A stretch of 64,000 nucleotides of DNA from Promethearchaeota archaeon (GTDB taxonomy: Archaea; Asgardarchaeota; Lokiarchaeia; Sigyniarchaeales; SOKP01). The stretch's first letter is position 1. Each line of letters opens with the position of its first letter. The notes under the pieces were generated by a model that had not been told where the DNA came from, did no database searches, and saw only the letters and a list, made by a program, of their open reading frames with translations. Positions 42,740 to 49,068 of this stretch are shown one piece after another. Both the position numbers and the translations under genes were made by a program. The stretch covers positions 352,001 to 416,000 of the forward strand of contig JAHPZA010000006.1 in assembly GCA_019058445.1 (NCBI GenBank), given 5' to 3'.

Positions 42740-43708
42740 TTAAACTAAGTTAAGAATGTCACCTACGAGGAGATAGGTATAAACCACGATGCGGTTTGCT
42801 TCCTCTCTGTCGATTTTTGCGTGGGTTGCTTTATGTGAACCCTTTAAAATACTTTCTAATCGATCCCCAATAAATCTAAGATGCGATCCTACTATTTTAA
42901 TATATGTCTCTGATTCACTTTTTTGATTAATAAACTCAATAATTCTATTGATGTATTGTTCCTCACCAAGTTTATGAGATTTCCCATCTATACCTTTCTT
43001 GATATTCTTAGTTGGAGGATAAATAGCATCTGCTAAATCTTTTAGAATTCTTCGACAAATATGGACTGCGTTTGACCAATTTTCAGGATTCTCAGAAGTG
43101 AGATTTTCATATATAGCAACTAATTTTTCAAGAGATTCTGGAACTATTTCTCCTATTTTTTGATCAACATTTTGTTTTATCGCACTAAAGATATCTTCAG
43201 CTATTTTCGAATAATTTAGTTCTAAGTAGGTTTTTGTAATATATTCATAAATAAATGATCGTCGATGTGCTAATATTTCTGAGACTTCTTGAAATCTTTT
43301 TTGTAAATTATTACGCTCATCTAAATCGCTTGCTGAGTCTATTCTCTTAATTATAAATTTTTTCTCACTCTCTAATTTTTCTATTGCATCTGGAATAAAT
43401 TCTAAAAATCCATCTACTTCTAAATATTCCCTTCCTGCCAATGTTGCCAATCTTTCTACTTCACGGAATTCAATATTTTCTTCATAAACATTAATTTTTG
43501 GGTATCCAGAGATTTCTAATTCCATTAGCCTCACCATCTCAAAATTATTCAACAAACGAGCGAGACGAATTGTCTTGAGTGCAATTAAAGCTAGAGAAAT
43601 CTCACTTAATTCAATGTTTTTCAAGATCTCGCTTGCAAGGTGTATAGCCTCATTATAAGCCTTTTTTGAAGGAGGAACTTTAAAAATATCATTTTTAATT
43701 TTTTTCAT
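42740..43708 (-). CDS. AbiTii-like abortive-infection protein
   Basis: EILKNIELSEISL..IALK..RLARLLNN......LEISGY N-domain; C-terminal WSNAVHICRRIL..LAD.IYP...SHKATH. Confidence 0.65.
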   Translation of the reverse strand: MKKIKNDIFKVPPSKKAYNEAIHLASEILKNIELSEISLALIALKTIRLARLLNNFEMVRLMELEISGYPKINVYEENIEFREVERLATLAGREYLEVDGFLEFIPDAIEKLESEKKFIIKRIDSASDLDERNNLQKRFQEVSEILAHRRSFIYEYITKTYLELNYSKIAEDIFSAIKQNVDQKIGEIVPESLEKLVAIYENLTSENPENWSNAVHICRRILKDLADAIYPPTKNIKKGIDGKSHKLGEEQYINRIIEFINQKSESETYIKIVGSHLRFIGDRLESILKGSHKATHAKIDREEANRIVVYTYLLVGDILNLV

Positions 43709-43794: not shown

Positions 43795-44157
43795 ATGAGT
43801 GAACGAGAAAGTTATGCCAAAAGATATAAGAATCTTTGGATATCATTATCTGATTGGCTTAAAACTAAATCTGGTTGGAAAGTGGGAGGAGTAGCAAAGG
43901 AAGGATCTCGCAGGGAAGGAGATTTTAAGGATAAAAGCGATTTGGATATGGATTTCTGGATAGCTGAAACATATCAGAAGCAGAAAGTCTATGATGACAT
44001 TATCCCGAAATTAAGGAATCATTACAAGAGTAGCCAAGTACAAAAGGGACGTAGCAGCAATGTCATTAAATTCTCCTCGAAGGATCTTAAGGTAGATATC
44101 GTGTTGCTCCCTAAAAAGGAATTCATGGAGAAGAGGAAGAAATACAAAGAAAACTAA
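43795..44157 (+). CDS. Minimal Pol-beta-type nucleotidyltransferase
   Basis: GSRREGDFKDKSDLDM and KVDIV catalytic triad in 120 aa. Confidence 0.75.
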   Translation: MSERESYAKRYKNLWISLSDWLKTKSGWKVGGVAKEGSRREGDFKDKSDLDMDFWIAETYQKQKVYDDIIPKLRNHYKSSQVQKGRSSNVIKFSSKDLKVDIVLLPKKEFMEKRKKYKEN

Positions 44158-44573: not shown

Positions 44574-46510
44574 TTAAATACCTAATTTTGTTCTATTTGA
44601 TTCTATATGCTCCATCATAGCATCAACGGCTTGAACAGGATCTGTTTCAACATGCAGGATTCCCCCTGTAACATCCTTACAATCTACAGTTAAGAGTTTA
44701 ACTAAATTGGGACCGCCAGTGACAGTAGGGACCGGATTAACATATGTGTAAAGACCAAAGGCTAATGCGAAGATTGCATCAATTGTTGCCTTCTGCTCCA
44801 TTGGAACTCGCTAATATTGAATTAATTAGCAATATATTCTGGAGCAGCCGCGACTATAGGCAGATCTGGAATAGGCACACCTCCAAGAGCCCCAGATATA
44901 GCTCCGATTAAATCAGCTATTCGCCCTGTATCTGTGCATGTACCATAACTTAACACAGGGGGAACTGATAATTTCTCACATAAAGCTTTTAGACCTGGTC
45001 CAGCTAAATCTTTTGCTTCAAAAGAACAGAGTCCTGCCACTTGTAATGCTCCATTACCACACCCCATAGATAGGACCAATACATCCCTTTTAATTAATTC
45101 CTTAGCAATATTTATAGTATGTACATCTTGTCCATAATCTCTTAACGTTGTACAAGAAACTAATCCAGCTACACCTCGAATTGTGCCATTTTTTATAGCC
45201 TCTAATAAAGGCTCAATGCTACCACCGAGTGCTGCAACTATACTTTCAGTTGAAAATCCAACCAATGCTTCATTCATCTCTAATCCTGTCACTGGCTCTA
45301 TGTTTGCTCTCCGTTCTTGAAAATTATCAATAGCCATTTGTAAGAGTTTTCCTGCCTGTTCTTCTGCCTTTTCAGGAAGATAATCTAATCTTTCGGTTAT
45401 TCCTTCAAAAGCTACAACTTCCGATACTGGAATCAATTTAAACTTATATCTTTCAGCATAGAGCGGATCTATGGGCATAGAACAGTTCATGTCACATACA
45501 AACGCATCAATACAACCGCTCGCTAAGATTGCTTCTTGCATGATCCAATTTCCTGTGAATCCATAAAACACATCATCCATTTCCCATCGCTGTATCATTT
45601 CTTGCCCAGTTTCTATGTTAGCTATGATTCTTAATCCCTTAGCACCAACTGCTTTAGCTTTTTCTTGCCATTCTTGTTTACGCGCCAATTGAACCATCGC
45701 AAATCCTAAAAATGGTTCATGACCATTAGGAACAACATTCACATAATCGGGGTCCAAAACACCTAAGTTTACTCGCATTTTATGGGGTTTAGGTACATTA
45801 AATAAAATATCTTGACAAAATTCATTCACTATCTGACTCTGGTATGCCATAGCCACTCCTAGTCTCATCGCCTTAAGTGCTAAGCTGGCATAATAACCAT
45901 CTATATTTGTAAGACATGAACTAGTTGCCAACATCATTTCGCTATAAATTCCTCCCGGAAAGATATTTAATTTTTTCCAGACATCCTTCCTTTCTTTTGG
46001 TGCTAATGCTTCTACTATTTTACTTGAATCCGTGTAAGATCTATTAAAATCATCTTTTACAAATTCGCATAGGCGAAGCGCAATTTCTTTATCTGAACCA
46101 GAAGTATCAACTCCAAGACGTTTTGCAAAACTTTTCAACTTATCCGGTTCGCTAATTTTATAAGGTGTTTTACCTTCAGCTGTTGCCTTAAGGGTTTTAA
46201 TAGTTGTTTCTGTATGATAATGGTACGTGGAAGCCCCTAAAACATTTCTAAGTAGCATCATTCGCATTGCCATTCCATCTGCTGTAATTCCACATACACC
46301 TCTTTTATCGATAGAAGCATCCGCTCTACAAGGGCCATTAGAACATAAATCGCATCGAGCACCTTTTAAGCAAAATGGACATCTTTTATCAGGGACACCT
46401 CCAAAACCTTGTGCCTCAAAACGATCCCAGATATTAATCATACCATCTTTTTTAATTCTCTCATAAACTTTTCGTACTGACTCATGATACGATAATCTTT
46501 CACCTTCCAA
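44574..46510 (-). CDS. cooS: Ni/Fe-CODH-like protein (CooS, clade-D/CooS-V-like), two exons: 46510-44834 and 44801-44574
   Basis: CPFC D-cluster, CDLCSNGPC..C B-cluster, NGHEP, DMNC, SCTT, MGCG, GTC. Joining the exons gives AAAPEY-MEQKATIDA, about 634 aa from TTG 46510 (GAGGTG Shine-Dalgarno). Confidence 0.9.
44802..44833 (-). other. 32-nt bulge-helix-bulge (BHB) intron in the cooS mRNA
   Basis: CUGCUCCA/UGGAGCAG exon helix, GAAU/GUUC central 4-bp helix, AUA and CAA 3-nt bulges, UUGCUAAU/AUUAGCGA intron helix; canonical cuts restore the frame. Confidence 0.88.
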
Positions 46511-46611
46511 TTTCCACACCTCATTACTTTGTTAAAAATTTTTTAAGATAGATTGGTTTATAAAAATTCTATCTCTAAATTATTGAAATTTCTTAAGTAA
46601 ATATATCTATA

Positions 46612-46692: not shown

Positions 46693-49068
46693 TTAGTCAT
46701 ATTCCTTTGCAACTGGATATCCTTTACGATGCCACATCATCATTCCACCAGTCAAATTTCTCACGTCTTTAAACCCTGCTTGTACTAAAAGTTGGGCTGC
46801 CATCATCGATCGTGCTCCACTATGGCAAATAGTTATTACTTCTTCATCTTTATAATCGTTGAGAGCATCGAAATCATTCATGAGTTCACCAAGTGGCACT
46901 AATTTAGCTGATTTAATATGGCTTCCCACCCCATTATATTCCTGAGGAGTGCGTACATCAACCAGGATAGCAGGTGCGTCCTCTGACTCAAGCCTCTCAT
47001 ATAACTCATCAGCAGTTATGTCTGATAAGGCAGGGGCTTCAGGGGTTCTAAGTTCTTTTCTTGTTTTCCGTTCAACCTTTACAGGTGAAATAATTTCCCC
47101 TTGAGGGATTGTACCCTTCTCCAACGTAGCAACAAGCTTTCCTTCTTCTTTCCCTAAATATAATAAGTCAATGGCCTCATTTAATTTTGAATATGCTTCC
47201 ACACTTGATTTAAATCCTGGATCCGTTGCATATACTTTCAATTTTTTGCCTTCTGGGAGTGTATCAAGCCCTTTAATTAATGCATTTAAAGGTCCTGGAC
47301 AGCTTAATCCACAGGCATCTACTGTAATAAATTCATCATCTCCTGTTGCTTTTTCTTTTACGAAAGTTTCCATTTGCGCCTCAAATCCTCCACATGAGGC
47401 TACGATCTCTTCACATGAAGCACTTGCCATTTCATAGAGCTTATACCCTCCTGTTAGATCGTATACTTCTTTGTAACCATGCTGGAGAAGTATTCGAGTT
47501 GCTAAATAGCTTCTATATCCCACCTCACAATAAGCATAGATGGGTTTATTCTTTGGAATCTCTTCCATTCTATCTCTTAATTCTTCAATCGGAATATTTA
47601 TAGATCCCTCAATGGCTCTAGCGTTATGCTCTTCTGGTGTTCTTACATCTAATAAGACTACACCATTGTTTTTAAGATCATCAACATCATGCCAATGCCA
47701 AATAGGCATATCTCCTTTGAGGAAATTTGCTGCAACAAATCCAGCCATATTCACCGGATCTTTAGCTGAGCTGTAAGGAGGTGCATATGTTAGTTCTAGC
47801 TCTTCTAAATCAAAAACTGTACCTCCCATTTTTATAATCGTGGATATTACATCAATTCTCTTTTCCGTCCCTTGCCCTCCCACGATTTGTGCTCCTAATA
47901 CTTTTCCTGTAGGGACTTCAAACAGAAGTTTAAAAGCCATAGGAACAGCTCCCGGGTAATACCCAGCATGGTTATTAGGATGGACATATACTTTATCATA
48001 TTTAATCTCAGAATTTTTCAGCTGTTTTTCTGTTAAACCCACGGCTGCCACACTCACATCAAAAACTTTTACTACTGAAGCTCCTAAAATACCCTTATAT
48101 TCATTATCTCTCCCTGCTATGTTATCTGCTGCGATTCTTCCTTGCTTATTAGCAGGACCTGCTAAGGCAATAGCGATTGGATCTCTCGTTTGAAAATGGG
48201 TTACCTGAACGGCATCTCCTACAGCGTATATGTGAGTATCGGAAGTTTGCATTTTCTTATTCACAATAATATGCCCTCTCTGCCCTAAATCCAGTCCAGC
48301 GTCTTTTGCTAATTTACTCTGTGATCTAATTCCAATCGCTAATATAACCAGGTCTGTTTCAATCATACGACCATTTTTAGTCTTCACATAAGGCTTATCA
48401 CCATTAATTCTTCCAAAAGACTCTACGGGGTCCTCCAGAACTAAGCACACCCCATTTAAAATTAATTCCTGATGAATGAATTGGGCAATTTCTTTGTCGA
48501 ACGCGGGCATAACTTGATCAAGCATTTCTACAATTTTTACTTTAACACCTTTTTCTACTAAATTTTCTGCCATCTCTAATCCAATAAACCCGCCACCTAC
48601 AATAACCGCATGATTAATTGTTCTCTTATCTACAAAGTCTCTAATCTTGACTGCATCAGGAATTGTCCATATGGTATAATAAGGAATAGAATCTAATCCT
48701 TGAAATGGAGGAATTATTGGCTGTGAACCTGTAGCTAGAAGTAAATAATCATAATAAAGCTCGTACTCTTGCATATTTTGTAAATCTCTCACTTTAATCC
48801 TTTTCTTGGCTTTATCGATTGAAATCGCCTCGTTATTAACTCTTACGTCTATATTGAACCGTTCAAGAAATCTTTCAGGTGTGACCAATTCCAATGATTC
48901 TTTTTCCTTAATTACATTTCCAACGTAATATGGTAAGCCACAATTTGCAAAAGATACGTAAGGACCTTTATCAAGCATGATTATTTCAAAATCTTCTCTT
49001 AATCTCCTTAGACGAGCTGCGGCAGATGCGCCACCAGCAACTCCACCAACAATTATTACTTTCTTCAT
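46693..49068 (-). CDS. CoA-disulfide/persulfide reductase fused to rhodanese, TusA and a second rhodanese (Npsr-like)
   Basis: GGVAGG, SFANCGLPY, GGGFIGLE, YAPP; rhodanese YCEVGYRS; TusA CGLSCPGP; rhodanese ICHSGARS. Confidence 0.88.
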   Translation of the reverse strand: MKKVIIVGGVAGGASAAARLRRLREDFEIIMLDKGPYVSFANCGLPYYVGNVIKEKESLELVTPERFLERFNIDVRVNNEAISIDKAKKRIKVRDLQNMQEYELYYDYLLLATGSQPIIPPFQGLDSIPYYTIWTIPDAVKIRDFVDKRTINHAVIVGGGFIGLEMAENLVEKGVKVKIVEMLDQVMPAFDKEIAQFIHQELILNGVCLVLEDPVESFGRINGDKPYVKTKNGRMIETDLVILAIGIRSQSKLAKDAGLDLGQRGHIIVNKKMQTSDTHIYAVGDAVQVTHFQTRDPIAIALAGPANKQGRIAADNIAGRDNEYKGILGASVVKVFDVSVAAVGLTEKQLKNSEIKYDKVYVHPNNHAGYYPGAVPMAFKLLFEVPTGKVLGAQIVGGQGTEKRIDVISTIIKMGGTVFDLEELELTYAPPYSSAKDPVNMAGFVAANFLKGDMPIWHWHDVDDLKNNGVVLLDVRTPEEHNARAIEGSINIPIEELRDRMEEIPKNKPIYAYCEVGYRSYLATRILLQHGYKEVYDLTGGYKLYEMASASCEEIVASCGGFEAQMETFVKEKATGDDEFITVDACGLSCPGPLNALIKGLDTLPEGKKLKVYATDPGFKSSVEAYSKLNEAIDLLYLGKEEGKLVATLEKGTIPQGEIISPVKVERKTRKELRTPEAPALSDITADELYERLESEDAPAILVDVRTPQEYNGVGSHIKSAKLVPLGELMNDFDALNDYKDEEVITICHSGARSMMAAQLLVQAGFKDVRNLTGGMMMWHRKGYPVAKEYD

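What the first reader, a model, noticed from the sequence alone, without database searches (positions are those of the whole stretch)
44793..44847. Bulge-helix-bulge mRNA intron splitting a CODH (cooS) gene in an Asgard-type archaeon
Seen: the gene reads ...GCT GCT CCA GAA TAT [ATTGCTAATTAATTCAATATTAGCGAGTTCCA] ATG GAG CAG AAG. The 32-nt insert adds a stop and a frameshift. The RNA folds as an 8-bp exon helix (CUGCUCCA/UGGAGCAG), a 4-bp central helix (GAAU/GUUC) with 3-nt bulges AUA and CAA on opposite strands, and an 8-bp intron stem (UUGCUAAU/AUUAGCGA) with a 9-nt loop. Established: the archaeal splicing endonuclease EndA cuts after the second nucleotide of each bulge and RtcB ligates; protein-gene BHB introns are rare, with crenarchaeal cbf5 the classic case. 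Applying that rule removes exactly 44833-44802 and restores PEY-MEQK, which contains the conserved active-site Lys. The spliced RNA keeps a stem with a 7-nt loop joined between loop positions 6 and 7, the tRNA 37/38 geometry. Inference: expression of this enzyme depends on tRNA-type splicing and may be regulated by it, conceptually like IRE1/RtcB splicing of XBP1. Other apparent pseudogenes in Asgard genomes may hide similar introns.
Basis: partly seen in the sequence, partly recalled or inferred. Interest (0 to 1): 0.96.

Follow-up and report, generated by a model that had tools for sequence, protein, structure and literature searches.

The report
tRNA-type intron in Asgard enzyme gene

Summary
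On the minus strand, a CODH-family gene (44574-46519) is interrupted by 32 nt (44802-44833). The insert forms a canonical hBHBh' motif: an 8-bp exon helix, a 4-bp central helix GAAU/GUUC, the 3-nt bulges AUA and CAA, and an 8-bp intron stem. Cutting after the second nucleotide of each bulge restores APEY|MEQK, which about 95 uninterrupted orthologs read, and the Pfam profile continues at position 458 on both sides.

- **Other carriers:** Three other assemblies carry a homologous 32-nt insert at the same site. The stem stays 100 % paired through three compensatory pair changes. The 3' exon is still under purifying selection.
- **Splicing machinery:** An EndA catalytic subunit and RtcB are encoded in the genome.
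- **Same genus:** The single-copy gyrB gene carries a stop-containing BHB insert in two species.
- **RNA evidence:** No RNA data cover the junction.

Best reading (about 0.87): a genuine BHB mRNA intron. The protein is CooS-V type (Glu replaces a cluster-C Cys), so it is probably not a CO dehydrogenase. The patchy distribution speaks against a conserved regulatory role like that of XBP1.

The scan had already flagged similar introns in other genes of this genome. My own structure-first genome scan showed no excess over decoy geometries.

The parts
44834..46519 (-). 5' exon of the CooS-V-type CODH-family gene (562 codons, ends ...AAAPEY)
   Evidence: Pfam Prismane profile positions 3-458, E 3.5e-123. 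Best solved relative is 7b7q, CooS-V, E 2.6e-179. It has I-E at the site where canonical CODHs have C-C.
44802..44833 (-). 32-nt BHB intron (third nt of the 5' bulge through second nt of the 3' bulge); adds a TAA and a frameshift
   Evidence: It is absent from about 95 orthologs. Homologous 32-nt inserts sit at the same site in L033, L042 and L114.
44574..44801 (-). 3' exon (75 codons plus stop, MEQKATID...), which contains the Lys aligned to Lys563 of CODH-II
   Evidence: Pfam Prismane positions 458-512. It aligns to 7b7q residues 555-629 and to 1su6 residues 560-634. pN/pS is about 0.09-0.22 in carriers.
44840..44847 (-). Exon helix h, 5' strand (CUGCUCCA)
   Evidence: It pairs with 44793-44800. 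The inner 6 bp are invariant in all four carriers, but a helix of 6 bp or more is present in only 5 of 77 intron-less alleles.
44836..44839 (-). Central 4-bp helix H, 5' strand (GAAU, exon)
   Evidence: It is complementary to GUUC at 44804-44807. It is paired in 15 of 16 cells across the four carriers.
44833..44835 (-). 5' bulge AUA; predicted cut between 44834 and 44833
   Evidence: Read from the sequence. The cut rule comes from established BHB/tRNA 37/38 geometry.
44808..44832 (-). Intron hairpin h': 8-bp stem (44825-44832 with 44808-44815) and 9-nt loop
   Evidence: It is 100 % paired in four carriers. Three pairs changed on both sides and two changed on one side.
44804..44807 (-). Central helix H, 3' strand (GUUC, intron)
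   Evidence: The variants are GUUU in L114 and GCUU in L033 (one A.C mismatch).
44801..44803 (-). 3' bulge CAA; predicted cut between 44802 and 44801
   Evidence: Read from the sequence.
44793..44800 (-). Exon helix h, 3' strand (UGGAGCAG)

Best explanation
The 32 nt at 44802-44833 (minus strand) are an archaeal bulge-helix-bulge intron inside the coding region of a CooS-V-type CODH-family gene of a Promethearchaeota (Asgard) archaeon. In the pre-mRNA, exon sequence on both sides pairs into an 8-bp helix. Four exon nucleotides (GAAU) pair with the intron's 3' end (GUUC), and the intron folds into an 8-bp hairpin. This presents two 3-nt bulges on opposite strands. The splicing endonuclease EndA cuts after the second nucleotide of each bulge. 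RtcB then joins the exons and probably circularises the intron. The result is an mRNA that encodes the full 637-residue protein with the junction ...APEY|MEQK.... The geometry, the exact frame restoration, conservation with covariation, purifying selection on the 3' exon and the presence of the enzymes are shown. The cleavage and ligation themselves are inferred. The intron is homologous in four carriers and is scattered on the gene tree, so it has been lost precisely many times or has moved between alleles. It is more likely a tolerated passenger than a regulator.
For: - Canonical geometry, with a fold z-score of -4.68.
- Removal at the rule-predicted sites gives an open 637-codon frame, identical at the junction to 18 + 77 uninterrupted orthologs that read APEYMEQKATID.
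- Pfam Prismane covers positions 3-458 and 458-512 in the two pieces, with nothing missing.
- A degenerate exon-anchored pattern finds 3 carriers among 400 genomes of the phylum, and a fourth carrier on a metagenome contig. All four inserts are 32 nt, at the same site and in the same register.
- The intron stem is 100 % paired, with 3 pairs changed on both sides. Sliding the register drops pairing from 94 % to 22-46 %. RNAalifold recovers both outer helices independently.
- All carriers have an exon helix of 6 bp or more, against 5 of 77 non-carriers.
- The 3' exon is intact at 75 codons with pN/pS 0.09-0.22, like the last 75 codons of the 5' exon, while synonymous sites between carriers are near saturation.
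- An EndA catalytic subunit with both Pfam domains and RtcB are encoded. Asgard EndA is reported as the broad-specificity (alpha-beta)2 type (PMC5829648).
- An independent Logan contig at 25.6x depth carries the insert with no variant.
- In the same genus, single-copy gyrB carries a 30-nt insert with stop codons in the BHB register. The cuts restore GLEGV|RKRPAMY, and the insert is conserved in G003 with a compensatory change. An EF-2 paralog has a strict 30-nt BHB insert.
Against: - There is no RNA evidence.
- The energy models do not form the 4-bp central helix.
- Only four carriers are known, two of them close kin (L033 and L114), so the covariation statistics are weak: 14-17 of 500 shuffles reach the observed values.
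- L033 has an A.C mismatch in the central helix.
- The 3' exon begins with ATG, so purifying selection on it would also fit a split gene translated as two polypeptides.
- My structure-first genome scan found no excess of ORF-restoring BHB motifs over decoy geometries.
- Most other stop-containing inserts I examined fail strict criteria.
Confidence: 0.87

Rival explanations
1. Split gene: the insert is never removed. The N-terminal 565-aa piece (ending in a few junk residues) and the 75-aa piece started at the ATG at 44801 are translated separately and assemble into an active enzyme.
For: The 3' exon starts with ATG and is under purifying selection. The upstream frame stops 3-10 codons into the insert in every carrier.
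Against: This reading gives no reason for an exact BHB register, an invariant 32-nt length, compensatory changes in the hairpin or the co-occurring exon helix. That ATG is the conserved Met of every uninterrupted ortholog. In the unspliced RNA the ATG lies in the bulge and exon helix, and no GGAGG-like ribosome-binding site precedes it. The break would sit three residues before the Lys that aligns with the active-site Lys563.
Confidence: 0.07
2. Pseudogene: a small hairpin-forming insertion has inactivated the gene, and the resemblance to a BHB motif is fortuitous.
For: The insert adds a stop and a frameshift. Most relatives, including the 94 %-identical sister allele, lack it. The gene is dispensable in many relatives (found in 21 of 41 genomes).
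Against: Four carriers separated by near-saturated synonymous divergence have no other lesion and show pN/pS of 0.09-0.22 in the downstream exon. The stem keeps pairing through compensatory changes. The chance of the exact motif at one of only two frame-restoring registers is below about 2e-4 even for a minimal motif. There is no second copy of the insert in the genome.
Confidence: 0.04
3. Assembly or sequencing artefact: the 32 nt are not in the organism's DNA.
For: The genome is a metagenome-assembled genome. The best-holding run is probably its own source sample.
Against: An independent Logan assembly of that run has it in a 30.5-kb contig at 25.6x depth with 0 differences and no indel variant. 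Homologous inserts occur in three other assemblies from other projects.
Confidence: 0.01
4. Translational bypass: the ribosome hops over the 32 nt, as in phage T4 gene 60, without RNA splicing.
For: A stop codon lies shortly after the take-off region, and a hairpin sits in the gap.
Against: There are no matching take-off and landing codons: TAT precedes the gap, and TCC and CCA end it. The gap sequence differs between carriers, while the BHB geometry is what is conserved.
Confidence: 0.01

Closest known systems
cbf5 pre-mRNA intron of Crenarchaeota (Watanabe et al. 2002; Yoshinari et al. 2006; Yokobori et al. 2009, PMC2738675)
   Same: It is a short BHB intron inside the coding region of a protein gene. 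It is removed by the tRNA splicing endonuclease, is linked to hetero-oligomeric (alpha-beta)2 EndA, and shows patchy gain and loss among related species.
   Different: The gene differs (a CooS-V-type metalloenzyme, not an RNA pseudouridine synthase) and so does the phylum (Asgard/Promethearchaeota). Splicing is not shown experimentally here. Here the motif is a fully canonical hBHBh' with 8-bp outer helices.
Archaeal tRNA introns at position 37/38 (canonical hBHBh' motif; Marck and Grosjean 2003)
   Same: The geometry is identical: 3-nt bulges, a 4-bp helix, cuts after bulge nucleotide 2, and a spliced product that is a stem with a 7-nt loop joined between loop positions 6 and 7.
   Different: The host RNA is an mRNA. 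The exon helix is built from codons (Ala-Ala-Pro / Met-Glu-Gln) and depends on synonymous codon choice.
BHB intron in the 5' UTR of Haloferax volcanii HVO_1309 mRNA (Schwarz et al. 2020, PMC7714728)
   Same: It is an mRNA substrate of EndA, and removal matters for expression.
   Different: That intron lies in the untranslated leader. This one interrupts the reading frame, so the protein cannot be made without exact ligation.
IRE1/RtcB splicing of XBP1 and HAC1 mRNA in eukaryotes
   Same: It is non-spliceosomal mRNA splicing that changes the reading frame, and RtcB-type ligation is used in metazoa.
   Different: The endonuclease (IRE1) and the substrate motif (twin 7-nt-loop hairpins) are different, and that system is a stress-regulated switch. 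There is no evidence of regulation here. This is an analogy only.
CooS-V of Carboxydothermus hydrogenoformans (PDB 7b7q; Jeoung et al. 2022, PMC9311411)
   Same: It is the host protein's closest solved relative (E 2.6e-179). Both have I-E in place of the C-C of canonical CODHs.
   Different: The bacterial gene is uninterrupted. The function of the Asgard protein is untested.

Membership tests
Archaeal bulge-helix-bulge (BHB) intron | [quoted passage not shown] | tested here: met
   GAAU (44839-44836) pairs with GUUC (44807-44804), and the bulges are AUA and CAA. This helix is paired in 15 of 16 cells over four carriers. It is not formed by the MFE or alifold energy models.
Archaeal bulge-helix-bulge (BHB) intron | Flanking helices h (exon-exon) and h' (intron) that hold the motif | tested here: met
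   Each helix is 8 bp. The fold z-score is -4.68. RNAalifold recovers both helices.
Archaeal bulge-helix-bulge (BHB) intron | Cutting after the second nucleotide of each bulge yields the functional RNA | tested here: met
   In silico excision of 44833-44802 gives a 637-codon frame whose junction is identical to about 95 intron-less orthologs. The Pfam profile is continuous at position 458.
Archaeal bulge-helix-bulge (BHB) intron | Structure conserved by compensatory change in homologous introns | tested here: met
   There are four carriers. The stem is 100 % paired and 3 pairs changed on both sides. The sample is small, and two of the carriers are close kin.
Archaeal bulge-helix-bulge (BHB) intron | Host encodes the splicing endonuclease EndA and the ligase RtcB | tested here: met
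   EndA is at C9:770595-770843: a 202-aa ORF with PF02778 and PF01974. RtcB is at C1:114713-116020 with E 2.6e-172. The structural beta subunit was not searched for.
Archaeal bulge-helix-bulge (BHB) intron | Spliced exons and a circular or linear intron observed in RNA | not testable with these tools
   No RNA run holds this organism. The RNA contigs laid are 88-95 % relatives and stop short of the junction.
Ni,Fe carbon monoxide dehydrogenase (CooS) with a catalytic C-cluster | Complete set of C-cluster ligands, including the Cys equivalent to Cys295 of CODH-II | tested here: not met
   The protein has I-E where CODH 6t7j has C-C, the same as CooS-V 7b7q. CooS-V(Ch) shows no CO oxidation or CO2 reduction (PMC9311411). 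It should be filed as CooS-V type within the Prismane/CODH family.
Group I / group II self-splicing introns | Ribozyme core of hundreds of nucleotides that matches the Rfam models | tested here: not met
   The insert is 32 nt. Rfam gives no hit of relevance at E <= 1.
IRE1-dependent unconventional mRNA splicing (XBP1/HAC1) | IRE1 kinase-RNase and twin stem-loops with conserved 7-nt loops at the splice sites | not tested
   The motif here is BHB, not twin 7-nt loops. I did not search for IRE1. This is treated as an analogy only.

The most novel reading that the evidence does not exclude
This intron is one of a population. This Promethearchaeota lineage may carry tRNA-type (strict and relaxed BHB) introns in many ordinary protein-coding genes, including gyrB, an EF-2 paralog, acs and this CooS-V gene. 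These introns would be gained, lost or exchanged on short evolutionary time scales and processed by EndA/RtcB. That would be an intron-bearing protein-gene architecture in the closest prokaryotic relatives of eukaryotes, using the enzymes that eukaryotes kept for tRNA and XBP1/HAC1 splicing.
Probability: 0.5. Interest if true: 0.9.

Novelty: new member of a known kind. Interest (0 to 1): 0.8.

Why it matters
In the literature I could search, BHB introns in archaeal mRNAs are limited to the cbf5 coding region in Crenarchaeota and one 5'-UTR case in Haloferax (PMC7714728, PMC2738675). No paper on Asgard protein genes was found.

- **A testable model substrate.** This is a perfectly canonical example in an Asgard metabolic gene, conserved with covariation. 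It shows that protein expression can depend on the tRNA-splicing machinery in this phylum.
- **Annotation.** Apparent frameshifted pseudogenes in Asgard MAGs should be re-examined.
- **Intron dynamics.** It offers a window on intron gain and loss in the lineage closest to eukaryotes.
- **Function.** The host gene should not be counted as evidence of CO metabolism.

Tried and rejected
- **Structure-first genome scan.** I scanned G000 for strict BHB motifs whose removal merges ORFs. This gave 1,717 and then about 1,000 hits, with the same rate (about 31 per 10^4 raw motifs) for the true geometry and for four decoy geometries. No excess appeared at any helix threshold. Operon boundaries in this AT-rich genome dominate, so the scan cannot count introns. 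In-window hits other than this one are ordinary gene boundaries.
- **Paralog-anchored search (tblastn of own ORFs).** It gave 16 stop-containing gap clusters, with 3 fitting the true geometry against 1-3 for decoys. That is too few to test.
- **Strict-geometry test on 10 profile-defined stop clusters.** It gave 2 true against 1-3 decoy. Even gyrB fails, because its inner stem is offset.
- **Greedy excision on acs.** It gave implausible removals under every geometry. By eye, one acs site is a relaxed BHB with 3 of 4 central pairs.
- **Copies of the intron elsewhere in the genome.** None were found.
- **RNA evidence.** No RNA holder of this organism is listed. X15 and X16 hold only 88-95 % relatives that do not reach the junction. 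X2 has no cover at the junction.
- **L012 (G020).** It looked like a second insert but is a truncation followed by an unrelated gene.
- **Recombination tract.** By eye, no long shared exon sequence beyond the helix nucleotides surrounds the intron in carriers.
- **Rfam.** Nothing relevant was found.

Full report
**What is there.**
On the minus strand of the window, a 565-codon ORF (44822-46519) ends ...AAAPEYIAN*. After a frameshift, a 75-codon ORF follows (44574-44801) that begins MEQKATID. Both belong to the Prismane/CODH family. The first covers Pfam profile positions 3-458 and the second covers positions 458-512, so nothing is missing and nothing is duplicated. The two pieces align to residues 4-555 and 555-629 of PDB 7b7q. 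Between them lie 32 nt.

- an 8-bp exon helix (CUGCUCCA/UGGAGCAG)
- four exon nucleotides, GAAU, complementary to the intron's GUUC
- the bulges AUA and CAA on opposite strands
- an 8-bp intron stem with a 9-nt loop

The 71-nt region folds at -25.3 kcal/mol, against -12.3 +/- 2.8 for dinucleotide shuffles (z = -4.68, 0 of 200 as good). Cutting after the second nucleotide of each bulge removes exactly 44833-44802 and yields an open 637-codon frame. This cut rule is the one implied by tRNA 37/38 introns, where the 5' exon keeps four helix nucleotides plus two bulge nucleotides.

One honest caveat applies. Both ViennaRNA and RNAalifold leave the two 7-nt strands between the outer helices unpaired. 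The 4-bp helix is therefore inferred from complementarity.

**Comparison with orthologs.**
Eighteen orthologs from same-genus to same-order genomes, and 77 of 80 from the species-representative collection, are uninterrupted. They read (A/V)APEYMEQKATID across the site, which is exactly the spliced product predicted here. Their record titles place the lineage in Promethearchaeota, that is, Asgard archaea.

**Other carriers.**
Two of the 80 orthologs (L033, isolate 9R3_44; L042, isolate DZ1M.411) are split at the same codon. An exon-anchored degenerate pattern that only insert-bearing alleles can match finds three carriers among 400 genomes of the phylum: G000, G190 and G210. The same approach finds a fourth carrier on a metagenome contig, L114. 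All four inserts are 32 nt, begin and end at the same positions, and fold the same way.

Their sequences differ (75 % and 50 % identity to the window's insert, counted by hand from the alignment). Even so:
- The intron stem is paired in 100 % of cells. Three pairs changed on both sides (C-G/U-A and A-U/G-C twice) and two changed compatibly on one side.
- The central helix is paired in 15 of 16 cells.
- Sliding the 3' partners by 1-3 columns drops pairing from 94 % to 22-46 %.

With four sequences, two of them close kin, the shuffle statistics are only suggestive (14-17 of 500).

**Exon adaptation.**
The exon helix depends on synonymous choices (CCA for Pro, GAG for Glu). All carriers have a helix of 6 bp or more. 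Only 5 of 77 intron-less alleles do, and one of those is the sister of carrier L033.

**Not a dead gene.**
In all carriers the rest of the gene has no lesion. The 3' exon is 75 codons with pN/pS of 0.09-0.22, similar to the last 75 codons of the 5' exon. Synonymous differences between carriers are near saturation, for example 35.5 of 51.8 sites between own and L033. The gene has therefore been maintained over long divergence with the insert in place.

**Not an artefact.**
An independent Logan assembly of the probable source run holds the stretch in a 30.5-kb contig at 25.6x depth, with no difference and no indel variant. The other carriers come from other projects.

**Machinery.**
The genome encodes a 202-aa EndA catalytic subunit with both Pfam domains and RtcB. 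The literature assigns Asgard archaea the (alpha-beta)2 EndA with the L1 loop that confers broad specificity (PMC5829648). cbf5 pre-mRNA splicing was linked to that hetero-oligomeric type (Yoshinari 2006, cited in PMC5829648).

**Context in the same lineage.**
Earlier notes of this scan listed candidate mRNA BHB introns in other genes of this genome. I tested some of them myself.
- **gyrB.** The gene is single-copy. It contains a 30-nt in-frame insert with two TAA codons. The BHB register (GGCG/CGCU, bulges UAA/AAA) restores GLEGV|RKRPAMY. The same insert is present in G003 of the same genus, with G.U changed to G-C in the central helix and a U-A to C-G compensatory change in the inner stem. 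It is absent from G005, G190 and G210.
- **EF-2 paralog.** It has a strict 30-nt BHB insert that restores QMTD|SDDEEQ.
- **Paralog-defined inserts.** Two further inserts fit (C9:775864-775893 and C6:165856-165897).
- **acs and ligase paralogs.** acs is split and has three in-frame stops, and several ligase paralogs have in-frame stops. They do not meet strict criteria. One acs site is a relaxed motif by eye.

My structure-first scans gave no excess over decoy geometries. The number of such introns in the genome therefore remains open.

**Evolution.**
On a maximum-likelihood tree of 63 orthologs, the three carriers that were included are scattered. Well-supported branches force three changes, and own's sister L031 (99 % SH-aLRT, 94 % identity) lacks the intron. 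L114, a close relative of L033, was not in the tree. The introns are homologous and sit at one site. The choices are therefore an old intron with many precise losses, or transfer between alleles. I cannot tell which. cbf5 shows the same kind of pattern (PMC2738675).

**What the gene is.**
The protein has I-E where canonical CODHs have C-C, as in CooS-V. [quoted passage not shown] The label "cooS/CODH" is right for the family but probably wrong for the activity. The Lys in MEQK aligns with Lys563 of CODH-II.

**Rivals.**
- **Split gene.** It fits the selection on the 3' exon but explains none of the RNA features.
- **Pseudogene.** It is contradicted by conservation and selection.
- **Artefact.** It is contradicted by independent assemblies.
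- **Ribosomal bypass.** It lacks matching take-off and landing codons.

**Novelty and verdict.**
In the library searched, published mRNA BHB introns are the cbf5 case and one Haloferax 5' UTR (PMC7714728). A 2026 preprint treats Asgard tRNA introns only. No paper on Asgard protein-gene BHB introns was found.

This is a new member of a known kind, with unusually clean comparative support, in a phylum where it bears on intron origins. Direct RNA evidence is still missing. The regulatory analogy to XBP1 is unsupported, because the distribution is patchy (3 of 400 genomes).

Noticed in passing
G000 C9:606358-608376 (- strand; locus L030) and G003 C183 (locus L126): Single-copy gyrB carries a 30-nt in-frame insert with stop codons between GLEGV and RKRPAMY. 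It is in BHB register, with a relaxed outer helix. It is conserved in a second species of the genus with compensatory changes, and is absent from G005, G190 and G210.
   Followed up: yes
G000 C10:682100-684277 (- strand; locus L024): One of two EF-2 genes has a strict 30-nt BHB insert with an in-frame TAG in the switch I region. The second EF-2 gene (C9:663619-665790) is uninterrupted.
   Followed up: partly
G000 C10:621084-623089 (- strand; loci L115/L116), and C6:861976-863748, C6:220650-222302, C10:295477-296580, C6:876338-877153: acs is split into two frames and has three in-frame stops, and four AMP-ligase paralogs also have in-frame stops inside profile matches. They fail strict BHB criteria. 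One acs site is a relaxed motif with 3 of 4 central pairs and a 9-bp inner stem.
   Followed up: partly
G000 C9:775864-775893 and C6:165856-165897 (- strand): These are two further 30-nt stop-containing inserts defined by paralog alignment that fit the BHB geometry (ATGG/CCAT with an 8-bp inner stem; GGGC/GCCU with a 5-bp inner stem).
   Followed up: partly
window 46693-49068 (- strand): Directly upstream of the CooS-V gene on the same strand is a 791-aa fusion protein. It combines a pyridine nucleotide-disulfide oxidoreductase, a TusA domain and two rhodanese domains. This suggests a sulfur or redox context rather than CO metabolism.
   Followed up: partly
window 42740-43708 (- strand): This 322-aa ORF has a weak AbiTii (abortive-infection) domain match. 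It lies next to a small nucleotidyltransferase-like ORF at 43795-44157, just downstream of the CooS-V gene.
   Followed up: no
L020 (G033 C1:2631241-2632923): In this closed genome, the CooS-V ortholog matches only through LVKLTT (60 residues past the junction) and sits in a 1401-aa open frame. This could be a fusion or a different C-terminus.
   Followed up: no
L012 (G020 C121): The CooS-V ortholog is truncated six codons after the junction (MEQKAT, then unrelated sequence and a stop) and is followed by an unrelated gene. This is either a rearrangement or a misassembly.
   Followed up: partly
G000 whole genome: ARAGORN calls introns in 19 of its roughly 34 tRNA predictions. Several of these calls are dubious (SeC, Pyl, Stop), which fits the reported difficulty of annotating heavily interrupted Asgard tRNA genes.
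   Followed up: no
L087, L089, L100, L103, L104 (genome contigs): CooS-V genes 78-80 % identical to the Asgard one sit in MAGs labelled Desulfobacteraceae, Chloroflexota, Dehalococcoidia and Acidobacteriota, as well as Bathyarchaeia and Methanofastidiosa. This means either wide lateral transfer or binning errors.
   Followed up: no
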